From positions 1-21,943 of the forward strand of contig JAGVCW010000022.1 in assembly GCA_020059045.1 (NCBI GenBank): a stretch of 21,943 nt of DNA, given 5' to 3'. Below are positions 4,339-20,038 of the stretch, in pieces. The DNA comes from Minisyncoccota bacterium (lineage in GTDB: Bacteria; Patescibacteriota; Minisyncoccia; Phycocordibacterales; Zambryskibacteraceae). The notes below the pieces were generated by a model. It saw nothing but the letters and a program-made list of their open reading frames with translations. It ran no database searches and was not told the origin of the DNA. How positions within the stretch are numbered: position 1 is the first letter of the stretch; each line of letters begins with the position of its first letter. A program made the translations under genes and the position numbers.

Positions 4339-4411
4339 TAAAGTAATTGTAATTTAGAATACTTTAAAATATTGCTTCTTACAATTAGCTTATGACCTTG
4401 CATTTCTTAAC

Positions 4412-4443
4412 AAAAGACCCCGCCTAGGCGGGGTCTTTTGTTA
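4412..4443. terminator. bidirectional Rho-independent terminator
   Basis: AAAA-GACCCCGCC-tag-GGCGGGGTC-TTTTGTT is a 9-bp GC-rich stem flanked by an A-run and a T-run. It ends the minus-strand pilin operon. Confidence 0.8.
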
Positions 4444-4492
4444 ATCATCATTCGTTATTCCTTATTCTCTATTCTTTATATCTTATTCTTCT
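4444..4492 (-). repeat. heptad-periodic purine tract, (NNN)GAAT repeated about 5 times on the minus strand, between the stop codon and the terminator; repeat family copy 1
   Basis: On the plus strand, ATTC occurs at 4450, 4457, 4464 and 4471 with period 7, and again at 4485. The reverse complement, GAAGAATAAGATATAAAGAATAGAGAATAAGGA, matches 14291-14323 at 30 of 33 positions. Confidence 0.6.
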
Positions 4493-4759
4493 TCAAAACG
4501 GAAATCTACCTGAAATATTTACACCGATTGTGTCCATAACAATCCTTATGATTCCGTAGACTCCGAACATTATAAACATTCCAATAACACCCCATAGCAT
4601 GTTTTTCTGACCTTGCTCTCGGTTCTTAGCATCTTCTGTATTAGTAAGGAATTGGAATATCCCCCACAGAAATACTAGGAGTGCTATCGCAAACATAAGG
4701 AGAATGAGTGGGTTTAAGATAAACTGATTTATCTTACCCAAAAACGGAGCAATGGACAT
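4493..4759 (-). CDS. TrbC/VirB2-like pilin-family small membrane protein, paralog 6, lacking the signal peptide and ectodomain
   Basis: Two TM helices separated by a charged loop (FLWGIFQFLTNTEDAKNREQGQKNMLWGVIGMFIMFGVYGII) match the family core of the upstream paralogs. It lies 15 nt after paralog 5. Confidence 0.5.
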   Translation of the reverse strand: MSIAPFLGKINQFILNPLILLMFAIALLVFLWGIFQFLTNTEDAKNREQGQKNMLWGVIGMFIMFGVYGIIRIVMDTIGVNISGRFPF

Positions 4760-4774
4760 GAGAAATGACTACCT

Positions 4775-5122
4775 CTATATTGCTGGGGGCTGGATTATTC
4801 CGCCACCACCCGTACCTGTTTCTGTCTGAAGAAGCTGAACGATCCCCCATACTGAAACCATAATGAATATTGCAACTATTCCCCAAATCATGATTTTCTT
4901 TCCTTCTTCTCTTTTGTCTTCATTTCCTGCGGCAAGAACAAATTTCATTAAACCCCATAGGAAAAACAGGAATGCGAGGCCGATGACGACTGGTGTTGCC
5001 ATATTGATAAGACCCCTGATCTGACTGATAACGCTCTGGGTATAGTTAAAAGTTGGATTCCCTACAGCAAGCACAATTGCTGGAAGTAGGAAACTGGCGC
5101 CAAGAGCAATAAACTTTTTCAT
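4775..5122 (-). CDS. TrbC/VirB2-like pilin-family protein with signal peptide, short ectodomain and TM hairpin; paralog 5
   Basis: Signal peptide MKKFIALGASFLLPAIVLAVG. Core PVVIGLAFLFFLWGLMKFVLAAGNEDKREEGKKIMIWGIVAIFIMVSVWGIV. Gly-rich C-terminal tail. Own minus-strand promoter at 5180-5208. Confidence 0.65.
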   Translation of the reverse strand: MKKFIALGASFLLPAIVLAVGNPTFNYTQSVISQIRGLINMATPVVIGLAFLFFLWGLMKFVLAAGNEDKREEGKKIMIWGIVAIFIMVSVWGIVQLLQTETGTGGGGIIQPPAI

Positions 5123-5179
5123 TGTTTGATAAAATTAAATAATAAAATACGTTTTAGTTATACCTAGTGGTATAGGCTT

Positions 5180-5208
5180 ATAATACAAGGATTTAATGCA
5201 AAATTCAA
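5180..5208 (-). promoter_or_regulatory. internal sigma70-type promoter, TTGAAT-17-TATTAT on the minus strand, inside the pilin array
   Basis: Reverse complement of 5203-5208 is TTGAAT, and of 5180-5185 is TATTAT, with a 17-nt spacer. Located in the 117-nt gap between paralogs 4 and 5. Confidence 0.5.
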
Positions 5209-5239
5209 GGGAAGTGTGGATAAAAAAGTGAAAGACAGA

Positions 5240-5557
5240 TTACGGTCCAATGATATAAGTGCTAAGCCCAAACTCAAATCTAAGTAACCAGACTATCCCC
5301 CAAACAGATACCATTATAAAAAGTGCTATAACACCCCAAGTCATTAACCTCTTTCCTTCTGTTCTTTTCTCTTCGTTACCTGAATTTAAGATAAAGTTTG
5401 CTAGCCCCCATAGGAAAAATAAGAAGGCGAGGCCGATGACGACTGGAAAAGCTAAGTTTAATACATTTCTGAATTCTGTGATTACTCCCTGTATACCTTG
5501 AGCCGCAACAAAAACGGGTAGAAAGGATGTGAGAATTAGAAAAAATCTATAGATCAT
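5240..5557 (-). CDS. TrbC/VirB2-like pilin-family protein, paralog 4
   Basis: Signal peptide MIYRFFLILTSFLPVFVAAQG. Core PVVIGLAFLFFLWGLANFILNSGNEEKRTEGKRLMTWGVIALFIMVSVWGIV is near-identical to paralog 5. A roughly 45-nt stretch (about 5404-5447) is about 85-90% identical to the corresponding stretch of paralog 5 (about 4949-4992). Confidence 0.65.
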   Translation of the reverse strand: MIYRFFLILTSFLPVFVAAQGIQGVITEFRNVLNLAFPVVIGLAFLFFLWGLANFILNSGNEEKRTEGKRLMTWGVIALFIMVSVWGIVWLLRFEFGLSTYIIGP

Positions 5558-5562
5558 TTAAG

Positions 5563-6024
5563 TTATGAAGTTCGAAGAAATGGAAACGCCAAATTACCCC
5601 CAAAAAAATCACTAAAAAGAATACTTACAATTCCCCAAACTGATACCATTACAAAGAGTCCTATCGCCCCCCAGAACATAAGACTCTTGCCCGCACTTAC
5701 TTTCTTCTCATCTCCTGCTGCCAAAACAAATCTCATAAGTCCCCAGAGAAAGACGAAAAACGCTAATCCTATGACAACTGGTATAAGTGAATTAATTAGA
5801 CCCACGAGTAAGCAAACAAATTCTGTGAAGTTACCAGGTTGCGTGCCTGGAGCAGTATTCCCATATGAGGGACACACTGAAGAAGAGGCCGGAGATGGAG
5901 AAGTGTTAACGGGGATAGGAAAACCGGCAAAAGCTTGCACGGGTAGAGATAGAATAATAATTAATATTACAAAGCAAGCTACGTAACTCCTCACCAAATT
6001 TATTTTGAATCTACTCGTATACAT
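5563..6024 (-). CDS. TrbC/VirB2-like pilin-family protein with an extended Pro/Ser-rich ectodomain carrying a Cys pair; paralog 3
   Basis: Signal peptide, then SPSPASSSVCPSYGNTAPGTQPGNFTEFVC with two Cys, then core PVVIGLAFFVFLWGLMRFVLAAGDEKKVSAGKSLMFWGAIGLFVMVSVWGIV. AAGGA ribosome-binding site. Lies 5 nt from paralog 4. Confidence 0.65.
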   Translation of the reverse strand: MYTSRFKINLVRSYVACFVILIIILSLPVQAFAGFPIPVNTSPSPASSSVCPSYGNTAPGTQPGNFTEFVCLLVGLINSLIPVVIGLAFFVFLWGLMRFVLAAGDEKKVSAGKSLMFWGAIGLFVMVSVWGIVSILFSDFFGGNLAFPFLRTS

Positions 6025-6027
6025 ATT

Positions 6028-6420
6028 TTATGGTCCTTGAAGTTGGTTCACTGTTGCTTGTATAGCCAAAGCTATTGCCCATGAGCCTAGAAGTATAAGG
6101 GCTCCAATGACTGAGGAGAAAAACGCACTTTTCGCACTCTTAAGTTTAGTTTCATCTCCACGTGCAGTAACAAACAGAAACCCTGCATAAATAATAGCAA
6201 GTGTAACTATTACCCCTCCAATAGGAAGTATCACGTCATTAATAACAGCAACTATGAAGTCGTAGAGTGTACCAGGAGCATTTCGGAGAGGATTGGGAAT
6301 ACAGACACTACCTTGAGGACATGGCGCGGATCCACCTGTATTACCCGCAAACACAATTCCTGGAATATAAACTACCAAGATAATGAGAAGAGAGAGAAGC
6401 ATTGTAAAAAGTTTTTTCAT
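6028..6420 (-). CDS. TrbC/VirB2-like pilin-family protein, the more classical VirB2-like variant with a Cys pair; paralog 2
   Basis: Signal peptide MKKLFTMLLSLLIILVVYIPGIVFAG. The ectodomain holds CPQGSVC. TM hairpin: IVTLAIIYAGFLFVTARGDETKLKSAKSAFFSSVIGALILLGSWAIALAI. Lies 3 nt from paralog 3. Confidence 0.6.
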   Translation of the reverse strand: MKKLFTMLLSLLIILVVYIPGIVFAGNTGGSAPCPQGSVCIPNPLRNAPGTLYDFIVAVINDVILPIGGVIVTLAIIYAGFLFVTARGDETKLKSAKSAFFSSVIGALILLGSWAIALAIQATVNQLQGP

Positions 6421-6445
6421 AAATAATTAATTCTTGCTTTAATAC

Positions 6446-6850
6446 TTAACCAAAAAGTGTAAACGGTTGATCAAGGAGAGCAACTGCAATAAATTTCACA
6501 ATAAGCCACGCGGCAAGTATAAAGAAGAAACCAATCATAGTATTTGTAAATATTCCTTTTGCCCTCTTAATTTTATCATCTGCTCCCCCTGCTGTAACCA
6601 TGAGAAAACCAGCTACGATAAACGCTATTGCTGCGAGTGGTACAGAGTAAAGTATTATGATGTTCATAATATTTATACCCAATGTGATTAGTGAGCCAAA
6701 GGTACAGGGGTCATCAAACTTGTTTTTAGTAGTATTAAAATTTGTATTGCAAACTATTAAGTTCGTATCCACAGCGAGAGTTGTAAGTGGCACGAGAAAT
6801 ACTACAATAATCAAAAAGAAACTTAGAGAAAATGTTAGTGAAGATTTCAT
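6446..6850 (-). CDS. TrbC/VirB2-like pilin-family protein, paralog 1; its start overlaps the stop of the upstream solute-binding-protein gene
   Basis: Signal peptide, an ectodomain with two Cys (LIVCNTNF...DDPCTFG), and the hairpin AAIAFIVAGFLMVTAGGADDKIKRAKGIFTNTMIGFFFILAAWLIV. The ATG (6848-6850) overlaps the TAA (6850-6852) of the 6850-8139 gene as TAATG. Confidence 0.6.
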   Translation of the reverse strand: MKSSLTFSLSFFLIIVVFLVPLTTLAVDTNLIVCNTNFNTTKNKFDDPCTFGSLITLGINIMNIIILYSVPLAAIAFIVAGFLMVTAGGADDKIKRAKGIFTNTMIGFFFILAAWLIVKFIAVALLDQPFTLFG

Positions 6851-12453: not shown

Positions 12454-12481
12454 TTGACATATAAAACGGGTATGCTATAAT
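12454..12481 (+). promoter_or_regulatory. consensus sigma70 promoter, TTGACA-16 nt-TATAAT, driving the candidate ncRNA
   Basis: TTGACA at 12454-12459 and TATAAT at 12476-12481. This is the best promoter match in the window. No CDS follows. Confidence 0.6.
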
Positions 12482-12487
12482 CTATAA

Positions 12488-12684
12488 ACGTTATCTTTGA
12501 ATAACTAGCAAGGGGGATCGGCAGATGCCTTACCCGCATATGCCGGCCACAGACAGAGGGCAAAACCTGTCTGTGGCCGCTGACATTTTGAACCACGTGC
12601 AACATATATAGTTCAAACGTTTCCCGCGGGGCCTACAGCTTCGCGTCAAGCCACCAACCATTGTGTCGGTGGCTTTCTCTTTAT
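12488..12684 (+). ncRNA. candidate structured small RNA of unknown family, about 200 nt, with its own promoter and terminator
   Basis: GC-rich island in an AT-rich intergenic region. Perfect 13-bp stem CGGCCACAGACAG/CTGTCTGTGGCCG (12544-12556 / 12567-12579). Additional hairpins: GTTAT/ATAAC, GGCAGATGCC, TGAAC/GTTCA, the CCCGCGGG palindrome. Ends in the terminator AAGCCACC-loop-GGTGGCTT followed by a U-tract. There is no ORF of 60 aa or more on the plus strand. Confidence 0.35.
12648..12684 (+). terminator. terminator hairpin with an interrupted U-tract
   Basis: AAGCCACC (12648-12655), a 12-nt loop, GGTGGCTT (12668-12675), then TCTCTTTAT. Confidence 0.5.
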
Positions 12685-12697
12685 GTATAGTTTTCGT

Positions 12698-12726
12698 TTG
12701 ACTTGAAGCAGAAATAGTAGTATGAT
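12698..12726 (+). promoter_or_regulatory. sigma70-type promoter, TTGACT-17-TATGAT
   Basis: TTGACT at 12698-12703 and TATGAT at 12721-12726. AAGGAG at 12765-12770 lies 7 nt before the GTG at 12778. Confidence 0.5.
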
Positions 12727-12777: not shown

Positions 12778-12933
12778 GTGCTTGAAAAAATTGCAATCCT
12801 TCTTGTGTTACTTTGGGTCATCGGAATGATGTTTGAATTCACTGCAGGTGGACTTATACACTTTCTGCTTGTACCTGCAGCAATAATGCTTATAGCTGGT
12901 TTAAGCATTAATCAGAAGAATGAATCTTCTTAG
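12778..12933 (+). CDS. small membrane protein of the lmo0937-like family, 51 aa; absent from the ORF track
   Basis: GTG start with a strong AAGGAG ribosome-binding site. Translation: MLEKIAILLVLLWVIGMMFEFTAGGLIHFLLVPAAIMLIAGLSINQKNESS. The LLWxxG...GGLIHxLLV motif is characteristic of the ~50-aa lmo0937-family proteins. Followed by the terminator at 12941-12966. Confidence 0.5.
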   Translation: MLEKIAILLVLLWVIGMMFEFTAGGLIHFLLVPAAIMLIAGLSINQKNESS

Positions 12934-12940
12934 CATACGT

Positions 12941-13159: not shown

Positions 13160-14284
13160 ATGAAAGAGAAAGATACTAAGGAGGAAGTGCAGGACGAAGA
13201 AGGTGTAGAAGCGAAGAAAGATAGTGTGATGACAGCATTCTTGTCTAAGAGTGCGACTCCCCCATCTGTCGATGATCTAGTAGAAGGTGTAGTTATAGGT
13301 ATAGACAAGTCAACAGTTTATATAGATTTACCACCATTTGGCACAGGAATAATCTACGGCCGAGAGTTTTTGAACGCGCGTGACATAATCAAAAAAATAA
13401 ACCTTGGTGACTCTGTGGCAGGTAAAGTAGTTGCTCTTGATAACGCAGAAGGTTATATAGAAATTTCTCTAAAGGAAGCACGCCAAGCACTCATATGGGG
13501 TGAAGCAGAGGACGCGATTAGAGACAAGAAGGTGTTTGAACTTCCTGTCACGGATGCAAACAAAGGTGGGCTCATCATAGTATGGCAAGGTATTCAAGGA
13601 TTTCTCCCAGCTTCACAGCTTAAACCAGAGCATTACCCACGTGTCGGCGACGGAGACAAAGACAAGATTCTCGACGAATTGAGAAAACTCGTAGGACAAA
13701 AAATTTCTGTCTCTATAATCGGAGCAGTTCCAAAGGAAGGAAAGCTTATTTTCTCGGAAAAAGACGGGGAGAGTAAGGATAAGGGTGCAATTATAGACAA
13801 GTACACTCTTGGTGATGAAGTACCTGGTGAAGTAACTGGCATTGTAGACTTCGGAGTGTTTGTAAAGCTTGAGGAAGGGCTTGAGGGTCTTGTGCACATT
13901 TCAGAAATGGATTGGGCACTAGTAGAGAATCCTAGATCAATGTACAAAGTCAGTGACAAAGTTAAAGTAAAAATTATTGAAATTAAGGACGGCAAGGTTT
14001 CCCTATCTATCAAAGCTCTGAAACCAAACCCTTGGGTTGAAGCAGCCAAGAAGTACAAGAAGGACGATGAAGTCAAAGGTGTGATCATTAAATTCAACAA
14101 GCATGGAGCTCTTGCATCAATTGAAGAAGGTGTGGCTGGACTTGTACACATTTCAGAATTCGGAAGCGAAGATAAATTGAGAGAGAAACTTGAACTTGGA
14201 AAAACATATGATTTTAAGATTACCCTCTTTGATCCTAAAGAGCAGAAAATGGCTCTCTCGTTTGTAGAAAAAGGGAAGGAATAG
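13160..14284 (+). CDS. rpsA: 30S ribosomal protein S1, short four-S1-domain form
   Basis: Repeated S1 domains with a GxV and L/I-VHISE signature: GEVTGIVDFGVFVKLEEGLEGLVHISEM and VKGVIIKFNKHGALASIEEGVAGLVHISEF. A 374-aa short form. Confidence 0.85.
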   Translation: MKEKDTKEEVQDEEGVEAKKDSVMTAFLSKSATPPSVDDLVEGVVIGIDKSTVYIDLPPFGTGIIYGREFLNARDIIKKINLGDSVAGKVVALDNAEGYIEISLKEARQALIWGEAEDAIRDKKVFELPVTDANKGGLIIVWQGIQGFLPASQLKPEHYPRVGDGDKDKILDELRKLVGQKISVSIIGAVPKEGKLIFSEKDGESKDKGAIIDKYTLGDEVPGEVTGIVDFGVFVKLEEGLEGLVHISEMDWALVENPRSMYKVSDKVKVKIIEIKDGKVSLSIKALKPNPWVEAAKKYKKDDEVKGVIIKFNKHGALASIEEGVAGLVHISEFGSEDKLREKLELGKTYDFKITLFDPKEQKMALSFVEKGKE

Positions 14285-14330
14285 AACGAGGAAGAATAAG
14301 GAATAAAGAATAGAGAATGAGGAGGAAATA
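14285..14330 (+). repeat. heptad-periodic purine tract, (NNN)GAAT repeated 4 times, immediately after the rpsA stop; repeat family copy 2
   Basis: GAAT at 14294, 14301, 14308 and 14315. GAAGAATAAGGAATAAAGAATAGAGAATGAGGA matches the reverse complement of 4444-4492 at 30 of 33 positions. Confidence 0.6.
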
Positions 14331-14350
14331 CAGTTGTAGGGAGGCGGAAC

Positions 14351-14385
14351 AAAAATTCTTCTGAAAGTCAGAAGAATTTTTGTTT
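14351..14385 (+). terminator. Rho-independent terminator for rpsA
   Basis: AATTCTTCTGA-aag-TCAGAAGAATT is a perfect 11-bp stem followed by TTTGTTT. Confidence 0.8.
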
Positions 14386-14422
14386 ATGTGAATACAAGCC
14401 TGCAAGTTTGTGGAGGTTGCAA

Positions 14423-15488: not shown

Positions 15489-15530
15489 AATTTTCTAATT
15501 ACTATCTGCTGTCTACTACTTATTACTACC

Positions 15531-19965: not shown

Positions 19966-19975
19966 AAAACTTTCG

Positions 19976-20038
19976 CGAATGAGGAATAAGGAATGATGAG
20001 TTAAGAGAATTATTCGTCATTCGATTTTCGTCATTCGC
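19976..20038 (+). repeat. heptad purine tract, (NNN)GAAT repeated 3 times, plus an inverted-repeat hairpin after the ybeY stop; repeat family copy 3
   Basis: GAATGAGGAATAAGGAATGATGA matches GAATAAGGAATAACGAATGATGA in copy 1 at 21 of 23 positions. Flanked by GCGAATGA (19975-19982) and TCATTCGC (20031-20038), an 8-bp inverted repeat, with an extra inner TCATTCG copy. Confidence 0.55.

What the first reader, a model, noticed from the sequence alone, without database searches (positions are those of the whole stretch)
4444..4492. Repeat family copy 1: a heptad ATTC tract (GAAT on the minus strand) between the last pilin stop and the bidirectional terminator
On the plus strand, ATTC occurs at 4450, 4457, 4464 and 4471 and again at 4485. 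This is the reverse complement of the heptad GAAT tract and lies on the coding strand of the minus-strand pilin operon. It runs from the TGA at 4493-4495 to the GC-rich terminator at 4412-4443. This copy ties the housekeeping loci rpsA and ybeY to the accessory pilin locus through a shared 3'-end element.
Basis: seen in the sequence. Interest (0 to 1): 0.5.

Follow-up and report, generated by a model that had tools for sequence, protein, structure and literature searches.

The report
Degenerate GAAT heptad repeat in 3' UTRs
A roughly 50-base, purine-rich run of seven-base GAAT units sits between the last pilin gene's stop codon and its transcription terminator; it is a real, lineage-specific repeat that also follows rpsA and ybeY, and it belongs to the long-known but functionally unexplained class of bacterial heptamer repeats.

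Summary
On the minus strand, 4443-4492 reads (GAATRAN)x7, with five exact GAAT in one register. None of 20,000 shuffles of the same composition reached this. The tract runs from the TGA of a T4SS-pilin gene to a strong terminator hairpin (4408-4444).

The same unit follows rpsA (14279-14325) and forms both arms of a hairpin between ybeY and ftsA (19975-20038). That is four arrays in 22 kb against about 0.03-0.2 expected. Copies 1 and 2 share 32 of 36 bases, including the "variable" positions, so they are copies of one another.

The tract is predicted to have no RNA structure and matches no Rfam family. It is absent from the orthologous sites of all relatives examined (Paceibacteria/Parcubacteria, RpsA 72-87% identical), although the terminators are conserved there. 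One relative (L127) has GAAT/ATTC arms in its ybeY-ftsA hairpin.

In relatives, period-7 arrays with other cores are 5-30 times commoner than arrays of any other period.

Best reading: a lineage-specific, dispersed, degenerate heptanucleotide repeat, tolerated only in untranslated spacers. It acts at most as an unstructured 3'-UTR spacer or as hairpin-arm material. A protein-binding array is not excluded. Interest is modest.

The parts
4443..4492 (-). Copy 1: seven in-register heptads, GAATAAG ATATAAA GAATAGA GAATAAG GAATAAC GAATGAT GATTAAC, preceded by GAAGAAT which overlaps the stop codon. A purine-rich 3' UTR spacer.
   Evidence: Sequence. TRF period 7. 0/20000 composition shuffles reach five in-register GAAT. 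RNA MFE is 0 kcal/mol, i.e. unstructured.
4493..4759 (-). Last of six tandem T4SS_pilin (PF18895) genes; its stop codon TGA is at 4493-4495.
   Evidence: ORF list. Pfam E = 5.9e-7.
4408..4444 (-). Intrinsic terminator hairpin, UUAACAAAAGACCCCGCC-UAGG-CGGGGUCUUUUGUUAA, directly 3' of the tract. It is symmetric in form.
   Evidence: Fold -29.4 kcal/mol, z = -6.97. An equivalent GC-rich terminator follows the pilin orthologue in 27 relatives.
14279..14325 (+). Copy 2. The rpsA stop TAG (14282-14284) lies inside a GAATAG unit. Then follows GAAGAAT AAG GAATAAA GAATAGA GAATGAG GAGGAAA.
   Evidence: Identity to copy 1 is 32/36. Unstructured as RNA.
14344..14389 (+). rpsA terminator hairpin. Its stem, AAAAAUUCUUCUG/CAGAAGAAUUUUU, is built from the same GAAGAAT/ATTCTTC unit.
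   Evidence: Fold -21.5 kcal/mol, z = -5.3. Relatives have GC-rich stems at this position.
19975..20038 (+). Copy 3. A GAAT array (19977-20001) and an inverted ATTC array (20012-20036) pair into a long imperfect hairpin that fills the ybeY-ftsA spacer. The hairpin ends 10 nt before the ftsA ATG.
   Evidence: Fold -29.6 kcal/mol, z = -4.2. The L127 orthologous spacer has a hairpin with GAATGAGGAATCAC / ATTC-type arms.

Best explanation
The tract is one copy of a lineage-specific, dispersed, degenerate heptanucleotide repeat with unit G-A-A-T-R-A-N. It belongs to the class of bacterial intergenic heptameric repeats (long simple-sequence repeats, or cyanobacterial 'STRR'-type).

Shown:
- It is periodic, non-random and intergenic.
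- It has at least three sister loci in 22 kb.
- The copies share even their variable positions, so they were copied from each other rather than arising independently.
- It is absent from orthologous sites of relatives, whose terminators sit 5-50 nt after the stop codon.

Inferred:
- The unit arose by 7-nt slippage next to purine-rich gene ends.
- It spread or was homogenised by recombination or template switching between 3' ends.
- It survives only where it is untranslated. Every unit carries TAA, TAG or TGA, so in sense orientation it cannot sit inside a gene.

Its effect, if any, is at the RNA level. It would provide about 50 nt of structure-free, purine-rich, stop-dense 3' UTR that separates the stop codon from the terminator hairpin. 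Where an inverted copy lies nearby, as at ybeY-ftsA and in the stem of the rpsA terminator, the units supply the arms of a hairpin that acts as a terminator or attenuator.

On this reading no sequence-specific trans-acting factor is required.
For: Periodicity and family:
- 0/20000 shuffles for the periodicity; 9 matches against 0.2 expected; 32/36 identity between copies 1 and 2, reached by 2/2000 core-preserving shuffles.
- Unit profile over 19 units: information 1.7, 1.7, 1.5, 1.4, 0.8, 1.2 and 0.06 bits at positions 1-7. 16 of 19 units carry a stop triplet at columns 4-6, and stops occur in all three frames within 21-28 nt of each real stop codon.

Structure:
- Tract MFE is 0 kcal/mol, with strong hairpins immediately 3'.
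- No Rfam family matches; the sub-threshold hits are all due to the terminator.

Lineage specificity:
- Absent after 27 pilin orthologues and about 80 rpsA orthologues.
- Absent at all three sites in the closest relatives L201-L205, where terminators follow the stops within about 10-15 nt.
- An nhmmer profile of the four copies finds nothing significant outside the window.

Literature:
- Heptamers are the over-represented long SSR class in bacterial intergenic DNA, with polymerase slippage proposed as the cause (Mrazek 2007 as summarised in PMC4679880; PMC4692102).
- GAATRRN arrays occur in at least 120 loci across many phyla, often with an inverted partner.
Against: - Units are only about 71% alike, and position 7 is fully random while positions 1-4 are about 90-95% conserved. 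Uniform decay of a slippage product would not give this pattern.
- In the related Paceibacteria loci, none of 32 period-7 arrays is a perfect repeat. Their non-core columns are at background identity (0.26 against 0.254).
- One array keeps its AAATT core, its position and its unit number across four diverged genomes whose surrounding intergenic DNA cannot be aligned. This suggests selection on a periodic core, i.e. a binding array.
- No length polymorphism could be examined, because no conspecific genome is available.
- No mechanism for dispersal was identified: no target-site duplication, and no terminal inverted repeats at copies 1 and 2.
Confidence: 0.5

Rival explanations
1. RNA-level protein-binding platform. 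Each 7-nt unit would be one site for an OB-fold (S1 or cold-shock type) or KH domain. An array of 4-7 units in the 3' UTR would recruit a multimeric or multidomain RNA-binding protein that controls 3'-end stability, processing or termination of the rpsA, pilin and ybeY-ftsA transcripts.
For: - The core is conserved while position 7 is random.
- All three loci have the GAAT strand in mRNA sense, 0-12 nt after the stop codon.
- The tract is single-stranded by prediction.
- Period-7 arrays are 5-30 times commoner than other periods in this clade (32 against 0-7; shuffles 0-1) and sit in operon junctions.
- The genes lack Shine-Dalgarno sites, so unstructured, S1-accessible RNA matters in this organism.
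- S1, Csp and CsrA were proposed as binders of TAACTGA heptamers (PMC4679880).
Against: - The tract is not conserved at orthologous sites, even in relatives with 84-87% identical RpsA.
- Cores differ between arrays and between genomes (GAAT, AATT, CTAG, TAGT, TTACT), so no single binder fits.
- AATT-type arrays occur in both orientations relative to transcription.
- In the broad-phyla set, sense against antisense is only 30:19.
- rpsA 3' ends are not enriched for arrays beyond expectation (5 observed against about 3 expected; own arithmetic from the and 29 listings).
Confidence: 0.2
2. Remnant or member of a small non-autonomous mobile or palindromic element (REP/BIME- or MITE-like). The ybeY-ftsA hairpin would be the complete element, and copies 1 and 2 would be half-elements captured next to terminators.
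For: - The copies share the order of their variable triplets (32/36 identity).
- Copy 1 is a mosaic: its 5' part resembles copy 2 and its 3' part resembles the left arm of copy 3.
- Copy 3 is an inverted pair with arms of about 25 nt.
- The family is specific to this lineage.
- Inverted heptad pairs recur in other phyla.
Against: - Copies 1 and 2 have no target-site duplications and no second arm.
- No transposase or RAYT gene appeared among the 20 window ORFs scanned with Pfam.
- Internal 7-nt periodicity is not a property of REP elements or MITEs.
- Only 22 kb of the genome could be examined.
Confidence: 0.12
3. DNA-level operator or nucleoprotein array. Contiguous 7-bp heptads would each be bound by a dimer of a small DNA-binding protein, as the ribbon-helix-helix omega repressor polymerises on WATCACW heptads.
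For: - The geometry is the same: 4-7 contiguous heptads with a 4-6-nt conserved core and variable flanks.
- Relatives carry palindromic cores (AATT, CTAG) in either orientation.
- In four relatives, the AAATT array lies in the -17 to -50 region of a TGnTAnnAT (extended -10, leaderless-type) promoter of the SBP gene.
Against: - The window's GAAT arrays lie upstream of terminators, about 100-150 bp from the next -10 element, and not in promoters.
- No ribbon-helix-helix or other regulator gene appeared among the 20 window ORFs scanned with Pfam.
- The sequence is unrelated to WATCACW.
Confidence: 0.08
4. Selected three-frame back-up stop cassette. A stop triplet every 7 nt cycles through all three reading frames. 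It would release read-through or frameshifted ribosomes before they reach, and melt, the terminator hairpin.
For: - 16 of 19 units carry TAA, TAG or TGA, and all three frames are closed within 21-28 nt of the real stop codon.
- In relatives, different heptad cores at the same rpsA 3' position also contain stops: CTAG (L121), TAGT (L125), TAAA (L126) and GATTAA (L199).
Against: - Absence of TGG is expected from the A-rich purine content alone (expected 0.66 TGG, so P(0) is about 0.5; own arithmetic from the counts).
- Period 4, 5 or 8 would serve equally well, so period 7 is unexplained.
- One stop per frame would suffice, but there are two or three.
- A neutral filter gives the same pattern: units seeded on a stop codon can duplicate downstream without changing the protein.
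- Close relatives manage with 10-15-nt spacers.
Confidence: 0.05

Closest known systems
Bacterial heptameric long simple-sequence repeats, or cyanobacterial STRR (Mrazek 2007, Mazel 1990; as summarised in PMC4679880 and PMC4692102)
   Same: Tandem 7-nt units, intergenic, several loci per genome, lineage-specific unit sequence, function unknown. GAATRRN arrays themselves occur in cyanobacteria, Bacteroidota, Verrucomicrobiota, Acidobacteriota and others.
   Different: - Here the units are degenerate (71% matches), with a fully random 7th position and no perfect copies.
- The arrays are short (4-7 units).
- The copies at different loci share the order of their variable bases.
- In the broad set 62/233 arrays are perfect repeats; in this clade 0/32 are.
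Xanthomonas GGGAATC and Nostoc GGGGAYT intergenic heptamer repeats (Rehm et al. 2015, PMC4692102)
   Same: [quoted passage not shown] Inverted pairs that can form stem-loops are described.
   Different: Those repeats are G-rich and form quadruplexes. The tract here has no G-runs, is A-rich, and is predicted to be unstructured.
TAACTGA direct repeats of marine Beggiatoaceae (MacGregor 2015, PMC4679880)
   Same: [quoted passage not shown]
   Different: Those repeats are near-perfect copies of one fixed heptamer, mostly a few nucleotides upstream of start codons. The tract here has a different unit, lies downstream of stop codons, and precedes terminators.
Omega (ribbon-helix-helix) operator heptads of inc18 plasmids (own knowledge)
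   Same: Contiguous 7-bp heptads, 4-10 per site, with a conserved 5-nt core and variable flanks, in direct or inverted orientation.
   Different: The sequence differs (WATCACW). Those heptads overlap promoters and come with a cognate regulator gene nearby. None of these features is seen here.
REP/BIME elements and terminator-associated inverted repeats such as Neisseria DUS pairs (own knowledge)
   Same: Short dispersed repeats at gene 3' ends. An inverted pair forms a hairpin that can serve as a terminator (copy 3).
   Different: REP elements have no internal 7-nt periodicity and are individually palindromic. Copies 1 and 2 here are single-armed.

Membership tests
Heptanucleotide simple-sequence repeat (LSSR / STRR-like) | Head-to-tail units of 7 nt, at least 3-4 copies, more than chance | tested here: met
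   TRF reports period 7 with 5.6 copies. 0/20000 composition shuffles match the periodicity.
Heptanucleotide simple-sequence repeat (LSSR / STRR-like) | Located in non-coding DNA, with several loci sharing one unit | tested here: met
   There are four arrays at three intergenic sites.
Heptanucleotide simple-sequence repeat (LSSR / STRR-like) | Near-identical units, the signature of recent slippage | tested here: not met
   Units match at 71%. Column 7 carries 0.06 bits against 1.4-1.7 bits for columns 1-4. No perfect array occurs among the 32 in this clade.
Heptanucleotide simple-sequence repeat (LSSR / STRR-like) | Unit-number polymorphism between strains | not testable with these tools
   The source contig is the only record of this lineage. 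The nearest relatives lack the tract.
REP / MITE-like dispersed element | Each copy an imperfect palindrome or bounded by terminal inverted repeats with target-site duplication | tested here: not met
   Only copy 3 is an inverted pair. Copies 1 and 2 are single arrays without flanking duplications.
REP / MITE-like dispersed element | Cognate RAYT or IS transposase in the genome | tested here: inconclusive
   None appeared among the 20 window ORFs scanned with Pfam. The rest of the genome is not available.
Intrinsic terminator (the adjacent element, not the tract) | GC-rich stem-loop followed by a U-run, at a gene 3' end | tested here: met
   4408-4444 folds at -29.4 kcal/mol with z = -7, and UCUUUUGUU follows the stem. 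The terminator is conserved after pilin orthologues. The heptad tract itself is unpaired and is not part of the terminator.
Omega-type RHH heptad operator | Contiguous 7-bp heptads overlapping a promoter, with a cognate RHH gene | tested here: not met
   The heptad geometry is met. However, the array lies upstream of a terminator, about 100-150 bp from the next -10 element. No RHH protein appeared among the 20 window ORFs scanned with Pfam.
HutP / TRAP-type RNA-binding triplet repeats | UAG (HutP, N4 spacers) or GAG/UAG (TRAP, N2-3 spacers) in a 5' leader overlapping an antiterminator | tested here: not met
   The period fits HutP, but the in-register triplets are UAA, UAG or UGA. The tract is in a 3' UTR, and no alternative pairing competes with the terminator.
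TIGR arrays (TIGR-Tas, reported in parasitic bacteria; PMC12045711 abstract) | Long arrays of interspaced guide units with spacers long enough to guide targeting (period about 36 nt; own knowledge) | tested here: not met
   The period is 7 nt, with 1-3 variable bases per unit and arrays of at most 50 nt.
Any Rfam RNA family | Covariance-model match at the gathering score | tested here: not met
   There are 0 matches at gathering threshold in the window. Over 4340-4500 only sub-threshold, terminator-driven hits appear.

The most novel reading that the evidence does not exclude
Paceibacteria-type CPR bacteria may use short arrays of a 4-6-nt core repeated every 7 nt (GAAT here; AATT, CTAG or TAGT elsewhere) as a general cis-regulatory device. 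The arrays would be placed at gene boundaries of genomes that lack Shine-Dalgarno sites and are rich in leaderless transcripts. They would be read by a family of proteins with a 7-nt (OB-fold or KH on RNA) or 7-bp (ribbon-helix-helix-like on DNA) step. The GAAT family in this window would then be a lineage-specific regulon linking rpsA, ybeY-ftsA and the pilin operon.
Probability: 0.12. Interest if true: 0.65.

Novelty: new variant of a known kind. Interest (0 to 1): 0.3.

Why it matters
Heptamer repeats are the over-represented long repeat class in bacterial intergenic DNA, and they have had no accepted function since they were first described.

This case adds three points:
- They occur in reduced CPR genomes, where non-coding DNA is scarce.
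- Here they are not simple slippage products. A conserved core alternates with positions that are fully randomised. Dispersed copies share even those positions. In relatives, one array keeps its core and position across diverged genomes.
- The same unit supplies both single-stranded 3'-UTR spacers and the arms of terminator-like hairpins.

If a binder exists, it would define a new cis-regulatory layer in organisms that lack Shine-Dalgarno sites. If no binder exists, the arrays are a useful marker of lineage-specific repeat turnover and a caution for annotating terminators and small RNAs.

Tried and rejected
- Recovering more of the source genome failed. Exact-protein look-ups for RpsA, the pilin, Pth, FtsA and P0001 found nothing. 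The window is the whole 21,943-nt contig, and the cluster look-up gave no taxon name. No genome-wide census was therefore possible.
- No Rfam family matched, and there are no tRNA or tmRNA genes.
- Selection for three-frame stops was rejected as a demonstrated property. Absence of TGG is expected from the composition alone, and period 7 is not needed for that purpose.
- A Shine-Dalgarno-like or ribosome-holding role for AAGGA/GAGGA was rejected. The window's genes generally lack Shine-Dalgarno sites and several look leaderless.
- An antiterminator role was rejected. The array can pair only about 7 bp with the 5' arm of the rpsA terminator. The predicted folds keep the terminator and leave the tract open.
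- rpsA-specific autoregulation was rejected. Heptad arrays at rpsA 3' ends in relatives (5 cases) are not more frequent than expected from the number of rpsA spacers sampled.
- HutP, TRAP and TIGR membership were rejected on motif, position and period.
- An nhmmer profile of the four copies found no homologous copy in about 925 kb of relatives.

Full report
**The observation**

On the plus strand, ATTC occurs at 4450, 4457, 4464, 4471 and 4485. Read on the minus strand, the mRNA sense of the neighbouring genes, the sequence after the TGA at 4493-4495 is AGAAGAATAAG ATATAAA GAATAGA GAATAAG GAATAAC GAATGAT GATTAAC. It is followed at once by the hairpin AAAAGACCCCGCC-TAGG-CGGGGTCTTTTGTT. Tandem Repeats Finder reports period 7 with 5.6 copies and 71% matches.

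Five GAAT in a single register never occurred in 20,000 shuffles of the tract's own, purine-rich composition.

ORF 4493-4759(-) is the last of six tandem PF18895 (T4SS_pilin) genes. The hairpin folds at -29.4 kcal/mol with z = -7. It is symmetric in form, but both neighbouring genes are on the minus strand.

**The family within the window**

GAATN3GAATN3GAAT with at most 1 mismatch matches nine times at four arrays, against 0.20 expected. Chains of at least 3 units number 4 against 0.03 expected.

- Copy 2 follows rpsA (four S1 domains). The TAG stop lies inside a GAATAG unit. The array 14294-14318 is followed by an AT-rich terminator whose stem, ATTCTTCTG/CAGAAGAAT, is made of the same unit.
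- Copy 3 fills the ybeY-ftsA spacer. A GAAT array and an inverted ATTC array pair into a hairpin of -29.6 kcal/mol (z = -4.2) that ends 10 nt before the ftsA ATG.

Copies 1 and 2 are identical at 32 of 36 positions, including the supposedly variable triplets in the same order. This was matched by 0/2000 composition shuffles and by 2/2000 shuffles that keep all GAAT cores fixed. The 3' half of copy 1 resembles the left arm of copy 3. The loci are therefore copies of one another, not independent products.

Over 19 units the profile is G-A-A-T-R-A-N, with 1.7, 1.7, 1.5, 1.4, 0.8, 1.2 and 0.06 bits.

**Properties**

As RNA, the tracts of copies 1 and 2 have a predicted free energy of 0, so they are single-stranded. 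No Rfam family matches; the sub-threshold hits are all driven by the terminator.

Sixteen of 19 units contain TAA, TAG or TGA, so all three frames are closed within 21-28 nt of each real stop codon. This follows from 'T plus A-rich purines' and is not separately significant.

The window's genes mostly lack Shine-Dalgarno sequences, and several have a TAnAAT element 6-8 nt before the ATG, which makes them leaderless candidates.

**Organism and relatives**

The window is an entire 21,943-nt contig. Its RpsA has homologues named Candidatus Zambryskibacteria, Paceibacterota and Parcubacteria. More of the same genome could not be retrieved.

Eighty metagenomic loci with RpsA 72-83% identical and five closer loci at 84-87% keep the gene order.

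- The GAAT tract is absent after all of about 80 rpsA orthologues and after 27 pilin orthologues. The latter all keep a GC-rich terminator within about 5-50 nt of the stop codon.
- It is absent at all three sites in L201-L205, where terminators follow the stops within about 10-15 nt.
- A profile of the four copies finds nothing significant outside the window.
- The one partial exception is L127. Its ybeY-ftsA spacer holds a hairpin with GAATGAGGAATCAC on the left and ATTC-type heptads on the right.

The tract at 4443-4492 is therefore a lineage-specific insertion or expansion between a conserved stop codon and a conserved terminator.

**Period-7 arrays in the clade**

The census covered the window plus L121-L200, 890 kb in all. 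An exact 4-mer recurring for at least 4 units occurs 32 times at period 7, and 0-7 times at each other period from 5 to 14. In shuffles it occurs 0-1 times.

About 28 of the 32 arrays are intergenic, mostly 0-12 nt after a stop codon or 5-22 nt before a start codon in short operon junctions. Cores differ: GAAT, AATT(T), CTAG, TAGT, TTACT, GATT. Four other relatives have a different heptad array directly after rpsA.

None of the 32 arrays is a perfect repeat. Four to six columns are invariant, and the remaining columns have pairwise identity 0.26, which equals the background of 0.254.

An AAATTNN array upstream of the solute-binding-protein gene keeps its core, position and unit number in L157, L175, L177 and L186, although the rest of that spacer cannot be aligned. 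Other lineages lack it, and L201-L205 have no period-7 arrays at all.

**Wider distribution and literature**

The hits come from cyanobacteria, Bacteroidota, Verrucomicrobiota, Acidobacteriota, Chloroflexota, Planctomycetota, Firmicutes and others. They are mostly perfect or near-perfect repeats, often with an inverted ATTC array 20-60 nt downstream: 14 cases, against 1 with the opposite order.

The literature describes heptamers as the over-represented long SSR class in bacterial intergenic DNA, with polymerase slippage proposed as the cause. Specific cases are TAACTGA in Beggiatoaceae, GGGAATC in Xanthomonas and GGGGAYT in Nostoc, none with an established function (PMC4679880; PMC4692102; bioRxiv 10.1101/2022.06.06.494920).

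**Interpretation**

The best-supported account (about 0.5) is a lineage-specific, dispersed, degenerate heptanucleotide repeat. It is tolerated only in untranslated spacers, because in sense orientation it is full of stop codons. It acts at most as an unstructured purine-rich spacer before terminators, and when inverted it supplies hairpin arms.

The conserved-core, random-position pattern and the statically conserved array in relatives argue that at least some period-7 arrays in this clade are under selection. This keeps an RNA-binding platform (about 0.2) and a DNA-binding array (about 0.08) alive. A REP/MITE-like origin (about 0.12) would explain the copy-paste similarity, but it lacks duplications, second arms and a transposase. 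A selected three-frame stop cassette (about 0.05) is not needed to explain the data.

**Verdict**

The element is a new variant of a known but unexplained kind, and its interest is modest.

Noticed in passing
window 12454-12700 (+): A promoter-like TTGACA-16-TATAAT (12454-12481) is followed by about 200 nt of GC-rich, hairpin-rich sequence with no long ORF and no Rfam match. This is a candidate non-coding RNA. A small membrane-protein-like ORF follows at about 12779-12934. Relatives keep a gap of about 1 kb upstream of rpsA.
   Followed up: partly
window, gene starts (e.g. 16118, 12352, 4338 on the minus strand): Most genes lack a Shine-Dalgarno sequence. Several have a TAnAAT element 6-8 nt before the ATG, suggesting leaderless mRNAs. 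Orthologues of the solute-binding-protein gene in relatives keep TGnTAnnAT about 7 nt before the ATG.
   Followed up: partly
window 14349-14385 (+): The stem of the rpsA terminator is ATTCTTCTG/CAGAAGAAT, i.e. built from the same unit as the upstream array. Relatives have GC-rich stems at this position.
   Followed up: partly
window 14321-14340 (+): GGAGG, an 8-nt spacer, then TTG immediately followed by TAG. This is a Shine-Dalgarno-like site with a start-stop mini-ORF, in a genome whose genes otherwise lack such sites.
   Followed up: no
L157 5676-5700, L175 5917-5942, L177 6280-6305, L186 5261-5292: An AAATTNN heptad array (4-5 units) is conserved in position and core upstream of the solute-binding-protein gene in four diverged relatives, while the surrounding spacer cannot be aligned. 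It lies at about -17 to -50 of an extended -10-type promoter.
   Followed up: partly
L121 11071-11095, L125 1189-1213, L126 2531-2555, L199 3243-3267: Four relatives carry heptad arrays with other cores (CTAG, TAGT, TAAA, GATT), all containing stop triplets, directly after the rpsA stop codon and before the terminator.
   Followed up: partly
L001-L120 (genome-contig hits): GAATRRN arrays occur in many phyla. When an inverted partner array is present, the order is GAAT-array then ATTC-array in 14 cases and the reverse in 1. On either strand the purine-rich arm is therefore 5'.
   Followed up: no
L129 6799-6830 and L171 14080-14111: CAATTTN heptad arrays overlap the region that tblastn aligns to the N-terminus of YbeY, so a heptad array may be translated there.
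   Followed up: no
window 4493-6850 (-): Six tandem paralogous PF18895 (T4SS_pilin, TrbC/VirB2-like) genes lie downstream of a solute-binding-protein gene. This arrangement is conserved in relatives.
   Followed up: partly
window 15495-15530 (-): The 3' region of pth reads GGTAGTAATAAGTAGTAGACAGCAGATAGTAATTAG. It has several TAGTA motifs at irregular spacing, possibly a decayed TAGT-type array.
   Followed up: no
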